In this document: positions 7,077 to 9,019 of the stretch, piece by piece
Numbering within the stretch: position 1 is the first letter of the stretch
Layout: each line of letters opens with the position of its first letter
Source: Bacteroidia bacterium
GTDB taxonomy: Bacteria; Bacteroidota; Bacteroidia; Bacteroidales; CAJPTX01
Reading direction: 5' to 3'
NCBI GenBank assembly: GCA_905373475.1
Contig: CAJPTC010000007.1
Location: forward strand, 16,852 to 80,851
DNA: 64,000 bases
Notes under the pieces: model-generated
Told to the model about the DNA's origin: nothing
Databases searched by the model: none
What the model saw: the letters and a program-made list of their open reading frames with translations, nothing else
Translations under genes and position numbers: made by a program

Positions 7077-9019
7077 AGCTGATGAAGGAAGTGTTTTTAC
7101 GCGTAGTTGAGGCACTACGTAGTTTGTGGGTTAGGGTGCGAGTCCGTCTCCTGACCATGGGGAGTCTCATCGTATTCCTCGGAATATGTCTCTTCATCTT
7201 CGAGCGCATGGTCTATTCCGAATCGCATGAGCAGCTGAGTAGAACCCTAGAGAGTTTTGCAGAGAAATTTTCTCAAACGCTCGAAATGCTGGATCTTGAC
7301 TTGAAGAATTTGGACACCGTAGAACATGCACGTTTACGTTCTCTATTCCGAGATCCTATGTACGGCGATACGGGGTATCCGTTTGTTGTACAGATGACAG
7401 GCAAGATTGATTTCCATTTCTTCCGCGACGGAGATCGCCTTTCGCGCGAGGTCATGGATCAGATGGCTTCGGCTCCTAGCCGACGAGGGAGTCTACGGAT
7501 CAATTTCGACGGTGGGCAGACACAAGAACGTGAGATAATATTTACCTACGTTCGCGAACTAGATTGTTTTCTTGCTATTGAAGTCTCCGATGCTGTGTTT
7601 GATGCGACTTTGAACGGAATTCGTATATACAGCTGGGCATTATTTATTTTTGGTAGTCTTCTGGTGTGGCTAATGCTGAGCTATTATACGCATCGCGAAA
7701 CTCGATTCCTCAAGTCTTTGCGCTCGGACTTGTCGGCTCTTGCAGAAGGAATCTTGCCAGAGCAGGTTGCATTTCGAGGACAAAAAGAGGTAACGCAGAT
7801 TGTAGATGCTCTCAAACGTCTTATAGATGGACTCTCAAATACTACTGCTTTCGTAAAACATTTGGCTATTAACGATCTTACCCAAGAATATACTCCTATG
7901 GGAGTAAGAGATGAATTGGGGAATTCGCTTCTTGAGTTAAGATCTGCTCTACAGAAGCAAGAAATTGAGGCAGGACATATAAAGGAAGAGGAACGAATCC
8001 GGAGTTGGAGTAATGAAGGGTTGGCTGAATTTGCAAAGTTGCTTCGTGAAAATAGTAACGATATCGCTCTCTTGGCAGACGTCATCTTAAAACGTATAGT
8101 AAACTATTTGGAGGCTATGCAAGGCGCATTGTACATGGCAGAGGAACGCAAAACAGGGACTGTGTTGCATTTGGTCTCGGCATTTGCTTACAATAGAAAG
8201 AAGTTTCTCAAGCAGGATCTTAAGTTGGGTGAAGGGTTGGTTGGAACGTGTGCTATTGAGCGGGAATTGGTACACATAGACGTTTTACCTCCTGAGTATT
8301 GTGAAATCACCTCGGGAATAGGCAATGTCCCTCCTAAAGAACTATTACTGGTACCGTTGAAAACAGATGACGCTCTATTAGGAGTTCTGGAACTGGCTTC
8401 CTTAAAAGGTTTTGCTCCCTATATGGTTGCTTTCGCACAACTACTCTCGGTAAGTATTGCGCAAACTTTGCAGCAAGTACAGACCAATCAGCGCACAGCA
8501 GAGTTGCTCAAACAGTCGCAGGAACAGCGTGAAGCGATGCGTTCGCAGGAAGAGGAAATGCGCCAGAATCTAGAAGAGATGCAAGCAACGCAAGAAGAAA
8601 TGACTCGCAGAACGCAGGAATATGAGGTACTTTCCTACGTACTAGAGCAAGCTACTTTCTATGCCGAATTCTCGGAGGAGGGACTGCTCTTACAAAGCAA
8701 TCAAAAATTAAAAGAGTTCTTGCATCAACTCGGATTTGCAGAACAAACAGAATTACGAATTCTAGATCTTGTTGAGGTGGAAAATAGCGTTACTGAACAG
8801 CACGCAGAGACCTTGACCTCCAGTTGGAAGAATATTCTTGCAGGAGTTTCGCAAACCTTTGTGTTGAGATTCAGGACAGAAAAGCCTGCACTGCTTTACG
8901 CCGCATTCACCTCACTTGCACGTGACGGAGGGAGTCGGGTTTACATGTTAGCACAAGATATTGCGAATCTCTTCCCTAATGGCGAAAAACAACCAACGAA
9001 ACCAGAGGAGTATAGGTAG
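7073..9019 (+). CDS. Membrane receptor: small extracytoplasmic domain, HAMP-like linker, GAF, Glu/Gln-rich coil, PAS-like C-terminus; no catalytic output
   Basis: 648 aa with two TM helices (TM2 is [21 protein letters not shown]). GAF core [11 protein letters not shown]...LLLVPL...GVLELAS. Coil [33 protein letters not shown]. The TTG at 7073 overlaps the cheR stop; ATG at 7082 is an alternative start. Confidence 0.8.
   Translation: [648 protein letters not shown]

What the first reader, a model, noticed from the sequence alone, without database searches (positions are those of the whole stretch)
8501..8620. Conserved Glu/Gln-rich coil directly after the GAF domain carries an MCP-like EE-x-x-A-T motif (candidate methyl-accepting helix)
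Right after the GAF domain, three proteins share nearly the same heptad-like segment. 7073..9019 has [33 protein letters not shown] (EEMQAT at 8573-8590). 11223..13856 has LLHEAQQMTRELRTNEELLRQNAEEMQKTHEEL (12183-12300; EEMQKT at 12255-12272). The distant paralogue 40059..42365 has LLAQAQEQSEELKAQDEELRQNLEEIKATQEE (EEIKAT at 40428-40445). EE-x-x-A-S/T is the classical enteric MCP methylation-site consensus. Gln at equivalent positions is what CheB deamidates. Only the C-terminal half of the extended consensus fits; the small-residue pair four residues upstream of EE is absent (R-Q here). As I recall, similar EEL-repeat coils also occur in CheB-CheR fusion sensor kinases. That would fit the coil being the substrate of the associated enzymes.
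Basis: partly seen in the sequence, partly recalled or inferred. Interest (0 to 1): 0.75.

Follow-up and report, generated by a model that had tools for sequence, protein, structure and literature searches.

The report
Predicted methyl-accepting coil in Bacteroidales sensors
A short, almost invariant Glu-rich helix found just after the GAF domain in three sensor proteins is the likely target of the CheR and CheB enzymes encoded beside two of them; this kind of "methyl-accepting coiled coil" was predicted in 2010 but never tested, and here it feeds a phosphatase switch, not a kinase.

Summary
All three peptides and all coordinates check out. The coil is by far the most conserved part of a large Bacteroidota protein family (consensus [32 protein letters not shown]).

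Glu-Glu pairs sit at heptad positions b and c in up to five successive heptads. One site, MEELQAT, nearly copies E. coli Tar site 3 (MEQLTAT).

The coil proteins sit in a conserved operon: CheR, sensor, CheR, CheB, small GAF protein, GAF-coil-PAS-PAS-PP2C, SiaB-like kinase, SiaC-like protein, TerB-ABC transporter. The same GAF-coil module precedes the kinase core of hybrid histidine kinases next to CheR, with CheB annotated beside it in two of the five clusters examined, in Alphaproteobacteria and Deinococcus. A related xEEL-heptad coil follows the CheB-CheR fusion in fusion kinases.

Three things differ here. None of the three coil proteins has a kinase domain. The output is a PP2C/SiaB/SiaC partner switch. 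The coil is a reusable cassette, present up to eight times per protein.

Methylation itself cannot be shown by computation. There is no detectable homology to the MCP signalling domain, and the central Glu pairs never alternate with Gln.

Verdict: real, partly supported, a new variant of a known predicted kind, of moderate interest.

The parts
6237..7076 (+). CheR1, a stand-alone methyltransferase with a weak CheR_N match and the SAM-binding domain
   Evidence: Pfam CheR 5.9e-35. The motifs AGCSxGxExYS, ASDI and CRNVLIYF are kept relative to E. coli CheR. It scores higher against the CheRs next to GAF-coil kinases (111-133 bits) than against E. coli CheR (54 bits).
7073..9019 (+). Membrane sensor: two TM helices with a small alpha/beta domain between them, a HAMP-like helical region, GAF, the coil, and a C-terminal PAS-like domain. 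No enzymatic output domain.
   Evidence: Pfam finds GAF at residues 333-467 only. The AlphaFold2 model has mean pLDDT 84, with one helix running 449-527 into a five-stranded alpha/beta domain at 529-629. A homologue carries a PAS_4 hit.
8495..8611 (+). The coil (residues 475-513): T-x-x-LL then heptads with E-E/Q at positions b and c. The invariant core [18 protein letters not shown] is residues 492-509 (nt 8546-8599). The best MCP-like site is E501-E502-x-x-A505-T506 (nt 8573-8590).
9022..9864 (+). CheR2, a divergent second CheR conserved as its own orthologue group. It lacks the Asp of the E. coli ASDID motif, so its activity is uncertain.
   Evidence: Pfam CheR 4e-17 with no CheR_N hit. Alignment shows TSVYLS in place of ASDID, while TGEExYS and CRN..YF are kept. 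Orthologues are found in 15 of the 16 cluster loci (all but the truncated L002).
9864..10433 (+). CheB, methylesterase domain only, without a receiver domain
   Evidence: Pfam CheB_methylest 9.9e-47. PDB matches 3sft and 1chd. Ser/His/Asp align with E. coli S164/H190/D286. The closest 120 relatives are all about 185-residue stand-alone proteins.
10437..11222 (+). Small membrane-anchored GAF protein of unknown role, conserved in the operon
   Evidence: Pfam GAF_2 1.3e-6. The same gene is present in L089-L091.
11223..13856 (+). GAF-coil-PAS-PAS-PP2C (SiaA-like) phosphatase, the output enzyme that carries its own coil
   Evidence: Pfam GAF_2, PAS_9, PAS_4 and SpoIIE. NCBIfam SiaA 4.3e-49, below the equivalog cut-off. 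Residues 109-375 are 33% identical to the HAMP-GAF-coil region of a Deinococcus hybrid kinase, E=6e-34.
12183..12300 (+). Coil of the PP2C protein: LLHEAQQMTRELRTNEELLRQNAEEMQKTHEEL
   Evidence: Orthologues read ENEEELRQNAEEMRATHEEL.
13887..14456 (+). SiaB-family protein kinase (DUF6272)
   Evidence: NCBIfam SiaB_fam_kinase 131.5 bits against a cut-off of 85. Pfam DUF6272.
14491..14874 (+). SiaC-family regulatory phosphoprotein (DUF1987)
   Evidence: Pfam SiaC 6.6e-42. NCBIfam SiaC 6e-26.
14958..18041 (+). TerB-ABC(ATPase)-ABC2 membrane transporter, conserved directly downstream. Candidate target of the SiaC-like protein.
   Evidence: Pfam TerB, ABC_tran and ABC2_membrane. Present after SiaC in 10 cluster loci and in L089-L091.
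18044..19021 (+). Conserved ORF of unknown function at the end of the operon
   Evidence: No Pfam hit. Homologue present downstream in 10 cluster loci.
40059..42365 (-). Orphan paralogue: dCache-HAMP-GAF-coil-C-terminal domain, with no CheR or CheB nearby
   Evidence: Pfam dCache_1, HAMP and GAF_2. ORF.
40419..40514 (-). Coil of the orphan paralogue: LLAQAQEQSEELKAQDEELRQNLEEIKATQEE

Best explanation
The segment is a methyl-accepting coiled-coil (MAC-type) cassette.

It forms a continuous helix that links the GAF domain to the next domain, and it most likely pairs with the same helix of a second subunit. The pairing is inferred. Glu-Glu pairs at exposed heptad positions b and c, at residues 494/495, 501/502 and 508/509 plus the flanking pairs 480/481 and 487/488, are the proposed substrates. 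CheR1, and perhaps CheR2, would methylate them. The receiver-less CheB would demethylate them.

Methylation would reset how strongly the sensor's signal passes down the helix. This would give the system adaptation, or memory, as in chemoreceptors.

The regulated activity is not a CheA kinase. It is the PP2C phosphatase of the 877-residue protein, which has its own coil. With the SiaB-like kinase, that phosphatase would set the phosphorylation state of the SiaC-like protein. SiaC would in turn control a neighbour, most plausibly the TerB-ABC transporter. Kinase-less coil receptors elsewhere in the genome, such as 40059-42365, would be served in trans by the same enzymes, as orphan MCPs are.

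Shown: the motif, its conservation, its register, the operon, the cross-phylum linkage, and intact CheB and CheR1 motifs. Inferred: methylation itself, the sites, dimerisation, the direction of control, and the SiaC target.
For: 1. Conservation is highest on exposed positions. The b residues E494, E501 and E508 are invariant, as are R497, Q498 and T506. The core d positions vary among M, L, S and A. This fits recognition by a partner acting in trans.

2. The register matches Tar. Tar reads L-E-E302-T-A-A-S-M and M-E-Q309-L-T-A-T-V. The family consensus reads M-E-E-L-Q-A-T-Q.

3. The operon CheR-sensor-CheR-CheB-GAF-PP2C-SiaB-SiaC-ABC is conserved in the same order, whole or in part, in 16 of 79 Bacteroidota genome loci and on three further metagenome contigs.

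4. The homologous GAF-coil module lies next to CheR, with CheB annotated beside it in two of the five clusters, in Mesorhizobium, Brucella, Ketogulonicigenium, Ensifer and Deinococcus.

5. CheB-CheR fusion kinases have an xEEL-heptad coil but no GAF. The coil, not the GAF domain, is therefore what travels with the enzymes.

6. The cassette keeps the same sequence after GAF, between PAS domains, and as six bare tandem copies in P0269. A domain-specific linker would not do that.

7. The CheB triad and the CheR1 motifs are intact.

8. A canonical Che operon with a REC-PP2C output exists in another member of the Bacteroidota, Persicobacter.

9. The MAC class has been published as a prediction (PMC6943060; bioRxiv 10.1101/2022.05.07.491037).
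Against: - No MAC protein has been shown to be methylated. A 2022 preprint says MAC proteins had not been experimentally characterised in any respect, and my searches found nothing later.
- There is no MCPsignal domain, and a profile search against the PDB found no MCP.
- The small-residue pair upstream of the EE pair in the extended MCP consensus is absent; Q-N occupies it.
- The central EE pairs never appear as EQ or QE.
- The model shows a single helix, so at best a two-stranded coil. The known CheR/CheB substrate is a four-helix bundle.
- CheR2 lacks a conserved Asp.
- 63 of the 79 loci have no CheR or CheB within 10 kb, and I could not test co-occurrence across whole genomes.
- The genome scan used the motif itself as its seed, so motif conservation within those loci is partly circular.
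Confidence: 0.6

Rival explanations
1. The coil is only a signalling helix, that is, a PAS N-cap or S-helix type linker. It is conserved because it transmits conformational change between GAF or PAS domains. CheR and CheB in the operon modify some other target, or CheR2 and CheB have a non-catalytic role.
For: - The model shows one unbroken helix from the last GAF helix into the PAS-like domain.
- In multi-PAS proteins the cassette sits exactly where inter-PAS linkers lie.
- Conserved polar residues at core a positions (E493, Q507) are typical of dynamic signalling helices.
- The central pairs show no E/Q alternation.
- No MCP homology was found.
Against: - Linkers normally co-vary with their flanking domains. 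Here the sequence is the same in unrelated contexts, including six tandem copies with no domain between them.
- Exposed b, c, f and g positions are more conserved than the core.
- The linkage to CheR holds across phyla (CheB annotated in two of the five clusters), and the coil persists in fusion kinases that have no GAF.
Confidence: 0.22
2. The conserved surface is an assembly interface. Coil receptors would bundle with each other and with the coil of the PP2C protein, as hetero-oligomers or arrays. Every paralogue must then keep the same surface. Methylation may or may not occur as well.
For: - Both the sensor and the phosphatase in each operon carry the same cassette.
- Most family members have no output domain and so must signal through another protein.
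- Conserved e and g positions (R497, N499, T506) are the ones that set pairing specificity in coiled coils.
Against: - It does not explain why CheR and CheB accompany the module in three phyla, or why they are fused to it in fusion kinases.
- The most conserved positions are b and c, which face away from a dimer interface.
- This rival is compatible with the main explanation and does not exclude it.
Confidence: 0.15
3. The EE-x-x-A-T match is a chance feature of a Glu-rich, low-complexity coiled coil and has no specific meaning.
For: - The motif fixes only four residues.
- The PDB profile search returned designed coiled coils with similar EEL repeats.
Against: - Several residues are invariant across 45 sequences that share 24-68% identity with the query.
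- 3,724 representative clusters match the 50-residue profile.
- The motif occurs only 3 times in 19,477 residues of the window.
- The operon context is conserved.
Confidence: 0.02

Closest known systems
[quoted passage not shown]
   Same: A coiled coil with MCP-like Glu pairs, encoded next to stand-alone CheR and CheB. No CheA, CheW or MCP is found in the window. The GAF-coil module is homologous to that of proteobacterial and Deinococcus hybrid kinases that sit next to CheR, with CheB annotated in two of the five clusters.
   Different: The literature describes MAC proteins as combining receptor and kinase functions. None of the three window proteins, and only 1 of 145 top family representatives, has a kinase core. 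The output here is a PP2C phosphatase with a SiaB/SiaC partner switch. There are two CheR paralogues. The cassette occurs in multiple copies. I could not read the primary paper or run the MiST MAC HMMs.
MAC1: CheB-CheR-coil-PAS_10-histidine kinase fusion proteins (KEGG CheBR type)
   Same: Heptads of the form xEEL(Q/x)(S/T)x. Examples are NEELVSVNEEVQSSNEELEASKEEMQSLNEEL in Ketogulonicigenium and NEEFQSTNEELLTSKEELQSLNEEL in Polymorphobacter. The coil lies directly before a PAS domain.
   Different: In the fusions the enzymes are joined to their presumed substrate, there is no GAF domain, and the output is a kinase. The RQN and QAT signatures of the Bacteroidota cassette are absent.
Enteric MCP methylation helices (E. 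coli Tar and Tsr)
   Same: The pattern hydrophobic-E-E/Q-x-x-A-S/T-hydrophobic, with sites spaced 7 residues apart. The consensus MEELQAT compares with Tar MEQLTAT at Q309.
   Different: There is no MCPsignal domain and no hairpin four-helix bundle. The upstream small-residue pair is missing. No C-terminal NWETF-like pentapeptide is visible in the translated C-termini (judged by eye). There is no CheA/CheW coupling.
Pseudomonas CfcA/BmsA clusters: a CHASE3/GAF hybrid histidine kinase with cfcB/cfcC (CheB/CheR), controlling c-di-GMP and biofilm and not chemotaxis (PMC4951495, PMC6849547, PMC8175716)
   Same: The same gene logic as the alphaproteobacterial clusters I examined: a GAF-coil sensor followed by CheR and CheB, with a function outside motility.
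   Different: Kinase output to CfcR. I did not have the Pseudomonas sequences, so homology of their coil was not tested here. No methylation of CfcA is reported in the papers I could read.
SiaABCD partner-switch system of Pseudomonas aeruginosa (PMC7647112, PMC8457831)
   Same: A PP2C phosphatase, a SiaB-family kinase and a SiaC (DUF1987) phosphoprotein, encoded in that order.
   Different: The phosphatase carries GAF-coil-PAS-PAS where SiaA has its own N-terminus. No SiaD diguanylate cyclase is present; a TerB-ABC transporter follows instead. CheR and CheB are upstream.
Canonical alternative-function chemosensory operon with a REC-PP2C output (example: Persicobacter sp. JZB09 plasmid, locus L081)
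   Same: CheR and CheB working with a PP2C output enzyme in Bacteroidota. Its PP2C protein matches the window's at 2e-64.
   Different: That operon uses MCP, CheW, CheA and a receiver domain. The window system has none of these and joins the presumed methyl-accepting segment directly to the phosphatase.

Membership tests
MAC proteins (MAC2 class) | Coiled-coil segment carrying MCP-like Glu/Gln pairs | tested here: met
   Unbroken heptad register over residues 479-524, with E-E/Q at positions b and c in five heptads. EE-x-x-A-T at 501-506. Helix in the AlphaFold2 model.
MAC proteins (MAC2 class) | Encoded together with stand-alone CheR and CheB, outside a CheA/CheW system | tested here: met
   The window operon. 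16 of 79 genome loci and three metagenome contigs show the same gene order, whole or in part. No CheA, CheW, CheY or MCPsignal homologue in the window. Absence across the whole genome was not tested.
MAC proteins (MAC2 class) | Receptor and kinase functions in the same protein (as described in bioRxiv 10.1101/2022.05.07.491037) | tested here: not met
   None of the three window coil proteins has HisKA or HATPase_c. One has SpoIIE/PP2C. Among 145 top representatives, 1 has a kinase core and 8 have PP2C.
MAC proteins (MAC2 class) | Match to the MiST3 MAC1/MAC2 profile HMMs | not testable with these tools
   These HMMs are not in Pfam, NCBIfam or the other libraries available. The primary paper (PMC3401578) is not held.
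MAC proteins (MAC2 class) | Homology to coil proteins next to CheR/CheB in other phyla | tested here: met
   BLASTP E=6e-34 over HAMP-GAF-coil against a Deinococcus hybrid kinase, and E=4e-13 against a Mesorhizobium kinase.
MAC proteins (MAC2 class) | Reversible Glu methylation by CheR and CheB | not testable with these tools
   This needs mass spectrometry or in vitro methylation. No published demonstration was found for any MAC protein.
Methyl-accepting chemotaxis proteins (MCP) | MCPsignal domain (PF00015), an antiparallel hairpin forming a four-helix bundle | tested here: not met
   No PF00015 hit at E<=0.01. The coil profile finds no MCP in the PDB. The model has a single continuous helix 449-527.
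Methyl-accepting chemotaxis proteins (MCP) | Extended methylation consensus [ASTG][ASTG]-x-x-[EQ][EQ]-x-x-[ASTG][ASTG] (recalled from Alexander and Zhulin 2007) | tested here: not met
   Only the C-terminal half fits (E501-E502-x-x-A505-T506). The upstream pair is Q498-N499, conserved at 97% or more.
CheR methyltransferase | CheR SAM-binding domain with conserved motifs | tested here: met
   CheR1: Pfam 5.9e-35 and motifs intact. CheR2: Pfam 4e-17, above the gathering score, but the Asp of ASDID is missing.
CheB methylesterase | CheB_methylest domain with the Ser-His-Asp triad | tested here: met
   Pfam 9.9e-47. The triad aligns with E. coli S164/H190/D286. The receiver domain is absent.
SiaABC(D) partner switch | PP2C phosphatase, SiaB-family kinase and SiaC phosphoprotein | tested here: met
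   SpoIIE 4.9e-20. SiaB_fam_kinase 131.5 bits, above the cut-off of 85. Pfam SiaC 142 bits, above 24.5.
SiaABC(D) partner switch | SiaD diguanylate cyclase as the controlled partner | tested here: not met
   The gene downstream of SiaC is a TerB-ABC transporter in the window and in orthologous loci.

The most novel reading that the evidence does not exclude
Non-flagellated Bacteroidales may run a complete chemoreceptor-style adaptation circuit that has no histidine kinase. Many kinase-less receptors of the form sensor-HAMP-GAF-coil-PAS, together with a coil-bearing PP2C phosphatase, would share one short methylation cassette. That cassette can be copied up to eight times per protein. Two CheRs and a receiver-less CheB would write and erase it. 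The methylation state would tune a Ser/Thr partner switch (SiaB/SiaC) that gates a TerB-ABC exporter. This would be a third wiring of CheR/CheB memory, alongside MCP-CheA and MAC kinases. It would also make the cassette a portable adaptation tag.
Probability: 0.35. Interest if true: 0.7.

Novelty: new variant of a known kind. Interest (0 to 1): 0.5.

Why it matters
Glutamate methylation by CheR and CheB is the textbook mechanism of molecular memory in bacteria, but it has only been demonstrated on chemoreceptors.

MAC proteins were predicted in 2010 to extend it to other sensors. According to a 2022 preprint, they had not been experimentally characterised in any respect.

This operon is a compact test case. 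It encodes two candidate substrates, two writers, one eraser and a phosphoprotein whose state can be read out. It occurs in cultured relatives: a Tenuifilum thalassicum CheB is among the closest homologues.

If methylation is confirmed, adaptation by methylation would be shown to work on a simple coiled coil and to control a phosphatase and partner switch. It would also give a function to thousands of GAF- or PAS-domain proteins in Bacteroidota that are currently named only by their domains.

Tried and rejected
- **Primary MAC paper.** PMC3401578 / 10.1126/scisignal.2000724 is not held. The family definition therefore rests on two secondary descriptions.
- **Literature for experimental methylation of a coil or kinase by CheR.** Searches found none. 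One search was swamped by unrelated words.
- **Coil profile against PDB sequences**. It returned only designed coiled coils and GINS. No MCP appeared, so sequence homology to MCPs is rejected.
- **Foldseek of the full model against the PDB**. GAF-domain proteins dominate, with two integrative MCP models also high in the list (ranks 1 and 19); nothing informative about the coil.
- **CheB homologue search, intended to reach fusion proteins**. The top 120 hits were all stand-alone Bacteroidales CheB. I found fusions instead through tblastn against plasmids.
- **Whole-genome co-occurrence of the cassette with CheR/CheB.** One hint is a shared contig length: orphan locus L077 and CheB P0169 both report 235,516 bp. 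The contig look-up returned other contigs, so this stays unconfirmed.
- **Conserved partners next to orphan receptors**. I found only tandem paralogues and a YfiR-like gene, with no enzyme. DUF6976, the window orphan's neighbour, is not a recurrent neighbour.
- **Chance or low complexity as an explanation.** Rejected.
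Full report
**1. The observation**

- 8501-8620 encodes [40 protein letters not shown].
- 8573-8590 is EEMQAT.
- 12183-12300 is ALLHEAQQMTRELRTNEELLRQNAEEMQKTHEELERSNV, with EEMQKT at 12255-12272.
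- 40428-40445 on the minus strand is EEIKAT.

Each coil directly follows a Pfam GAF domain. The short motif EE..A[ST] is rare in the window: 3 hits in 19,477 residues against about 1.1 expected, and two of the three are these coils.

**2. Conservation**

A homologue search with 7073-9019 returned 513 proteins. Where a source names the organism, it is a member of the Bacteroidota. The architecture is (Cache)-HAMP-GAF-coil-PAS. The coil is the best-conserved stretch, with consensus [32 protein letters not shown].

I aligned 45 members that share only 24-68% identity with the query.
- Invariant: T475, L478, E494, R497, Q498, E501, E502, T506, E508.
- At least 90% conserved: L479, Q485, Q492, E493, E495, N499, Q507, E509, R512.

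Column entropy is 0.41 bits for residues 492-509. It is 1.44 for GAF and about 2.8 for the N-terminal sensor and the C-terminal domain.

The hydrophobic pattern gives an unbroken heptad register with a = 479, 486, 493, 500, 507 and d = 482, 489, 496, 503, 510. The Glu pairs then fall at positions b and c in five successive heptads: 480/481, 487/488, 494/495, 501/502 and 508/509. The exposed b positions of the three central heptads are invariant. The core d positions vary among M, L, S and A. A surface more conserved than the core points to recognition by another protein.

The AlphaFold2 model (mean pLDDT 84) shows one continuous helix, 449-527. It runs from the last GAF helix through the coil into a PAS-like alpha/beta domain at 529-629.

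**3. Comparison with a real chemoreceptor**

From the E. coli K-12 sequence, the Tar sites read TEQ295QASAL, LEE302TAASM and MEQ309LTATV. The pattern is hydrophobic-E-E/Q-x-x-A-S/T-hydrophobic with 7-residue spacing. The family consensus M500-E-E-L-Q-A-T-Q507 matches that pattern and register. It matches the seven residues of Tar site 3 (MEQLTAT) at five positions.

The resemblance ends there.
- There is no MCPsignal domain.
- A profile of the coil finds no MCP among PDB sequences.
- The upstream small-residue pair is replaced by the conserved Q498-N499.
- The model has no hairpin.
- The three central EE pairs are never Gln. E/Q alternation is seen only in the flanking pairs: residue 481, and 488 at E73%/Q9%.

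**4. Genomic context**

The window encodes, on one strand and almost without gaps:

| Coordinates | Product |
|---|---|
| 6237-7076 | CheR1 |
| 7073-9019 | coil sensor |
| 9022-9864 | CheR2 |
| 9864-10433 | CheB, methylesterase domain only |
| 10437-11222 | small TM-GAF protein |
| 11223-13856 | GAF-coil-PAS-PAS-PP2C |
| 13887-14456 | SiaB-family kinase (131.5 bits, cut-off 85) |
| 14491-14874 | SiaC-family phosphoprotein |
| 14958-18041 | TerB-ABC transporter |
| 18044-19021 | conserved ORF |

A genome scan found 562 relatives in one-genome-per-species Bacteroidota. Of the 79 loci kept, 16 have the same cluster, whole or in part (several lie on short contigs), in the same order. The TerB-ABC gene follows SiaC in 10 of them. 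Three Tenuifilaceae-type metagenome contigs repeat the whole arrangement.

The other 63 loci are orphans, like the window's third paralogue. One MAG carries both a cluster (L007) and an orphan (L034).

In the PP2C orthologues the coil reads ENEEELRQNAEEMRATHEEL, so A-T is conserved there as well. The window copy is a slight outlier, with E495L and A505K.

The CheB Ser-His-Asp triad is intact. CheR1 keeps all CheR motifs. CheR2 forms a separate orthologue group that lacks the Asp of ASDID.

**5. Linkage beyond Bacteroidota**

The best plasmid matches to CheR1 are CheR genes that sit right after hybrid histidine kinases in Mesorhizobium, Brucella, Ketogulonicigenium, Ensifer and Deinococcus; a separate cheB is annotated next to cheR only in the Mesorhizobium and Brucella loci.

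These kinases have, directly after a GAF domain and before HisKA:
- LLEETQRQSEELQTQSEELRVSNEELEEQ in Mesorhizobium, Brucella and Ensifer; Ketogulonicigenium has a divergent version (LLEETRRQAETLHSHTEELAASNEELEEQ),
- LLSQSQDMAQELQSQQEELRQTNEELEQK in Deinococcus.

The HAMP-GAF-coil region of the window's PP2C protein is 33% identical to the Deinococcus kinase over 270 residues, E=6e-34.

Two true CheB-CheR fusion kinases, from Polymorphobacter and Ketogulonicigenium, have no GAF domain. The element shared by all systems that contain CheR and CheB is therefore the coil.

**6. The coil is a cassette**

A 50-position profile of the coil matched 3,724 representative clusters at E<=1e-3 and 1,785 at E<=1e-10, among 1.84 billion proteins.

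The top hits carry the unit several times.
- P0269 is GAF followed by six tandem 70-residue repeats, each containing [18 protein letters not shown].
- P0270 and P0274 are [coil-PAS]n arrays.

Of 145 top representatives, 133 have GAF, 8 have PP2C, 1 has a kinase core and none has CheR, CheB, REC or MCPsignal. Two to four copies per protein is typical and eight is the maximum. This ranking favours multi-copy proteins, because scores add up over copies. Some of the internal copies are also recent duplications.

**7. What is already known**

- A 2022 preprint describes MAC1 as incorporating, and MAC2 as associated with, CheB and CheR. It says MAC proteins contain receptor and kinase functions and have not been experimentally characterised in any respect.
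- Pseudomonas putida cfcABCDE and P. alkylphenolica bmsA are genetically studied clusters of a CHASE3/GAF hybrid kinase with CheR and CheB. They act on biofilm and c-di-GMP, not on chemotaxis (PMC4951495, PMC6849547, PMC8175716). No methylation is reported in what I could read.
- The SiaA/B/C partner switch is established in P. aeruginosa, and DUF1987 proteins are proposed to regulate adjacent proteins (PMC7647112, PMC8457831).
- A canonical MCP-CheW-CheA-(REC-PP2C)-CheB-CheR operon exists on a Persicobacter plasmid.

**8. Interpretation**

The most likely reading is that the coil is a MAC-type methyl-accepting cassette, written by CheR1 (and perhaps CheR2) and erased by CheB. It would provide adaptation to a pathway whose output is the PP2C/SiaB/SiaC switch and probably the TerB-ABC transporter.

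I give this 0.6. The main rival, at about 0.2, is a pure signalling-helix role with the enzymes acting elsewhere. An assembly-interface role (about 0.15) is compatible with methylation. Chance is excluded.

The system fails one feature of the published MAC description, a kinase in the same protein. It also fails the membership tests for MCPs. I therefore file it as a new variant of the predicted MAC kind, not as a plain member.

**9. Limits**

- Methylation is not testable with these tools.
- The primary MAC paper and the MiST HMMs were not available.
- Co-occurrence across whole genomes could not be measured.
- The genome scan was seeded with the motif EE[ML]RQN[ML]E, so only searches count as unbiased evidence of conservation.

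Noticed in passing
window 9022-9864: The second CheR (CheR2) forms its own orthologue group, found in 15 of the 16 cluster loci (all but the truncated L002). It lacks the Asp of the E. coli ASDID motif (TSVYLS here) and has no CheR_N hit. It may be a specialised or inactive paralogue.
   Followed up: partly
window 14958-19021: A TerB-ABC(ATPase)-ABC2 membrane transporter and a 325-residue ORF with no Pfam hit are conserved directly after the SiaC-like gene in all cluster loci long enough to show it. They are candidate targets of the partner switch, taking the place of the SiaD cyclase.
   Followed up: partly
window 12183-12300: The coil of the window's PP2C protein departs from its own orthologues at two motif positions. 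E495 is L (NEELLRQN against NEEELRQN) and A505 is K (EEMQKT against EEMRAT).
   Followed up: yes
window 42366-43521 (minus strand): A DUF6976 gene (42475-43521) lies directly upstream of the orphan coil sensor and overlaps the start of its longest ORF, so the true start is probably 42365. DUF6976 is not a recurrent neighbour in the 79 related loci.
   Followed up: partly
loci L028 8455-9111 and 13 other orphan loci: A secreted YfiR/HmsC-like protein (DUF4154) is encoded just upstream of the coil sensor in 14 orphan loci. This suggests a periplasmic partner, as in YfiR-YfiN systems. Tandem paralogous coil sensors occur in 18 loci.
   Followed up: partly
proteins P0269, P0270, P0274 (representative library): Some proteins carry the cassette many times. 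P0269 is GAF plus six tandem 70-residue repeats with no other domain. P0270 and P0274 are long [coil-PAS]n arrays with no output domain.
   Followed up: partly
locus L081 (Persicobacter sp. JZB09 plasmid, CP012860.1 211444-228085): This unannotated record holds a canonical operon: PAS-HAMP-MCP, CheW, CheA, REC-PP2C, CheB(REC), CheR. It is a classical Che pathway with a PP2C output in the Bacteroidota.
   Followed up: partly
locus L084 (Deinococcus sp. QL22 plasmid): The kinase upstream of CheR has seven HAMP/HAMP_2 repeats before the GAF-coil-HisKA region. No separate cheB is annotated next to it. The following gene is a REC-PAS kinase.
   Followed up: no
window 48826-58014: A 3,062-residue ORF on the plus strand. 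Not examined.
   Followed up: no
window 7073-7082: The listed TTG start at 7073 overlaps the CheR1 stop codon. Most near-identical database copies are 645 residues, so they start three codons later at the ATG.
   Followed up: partly
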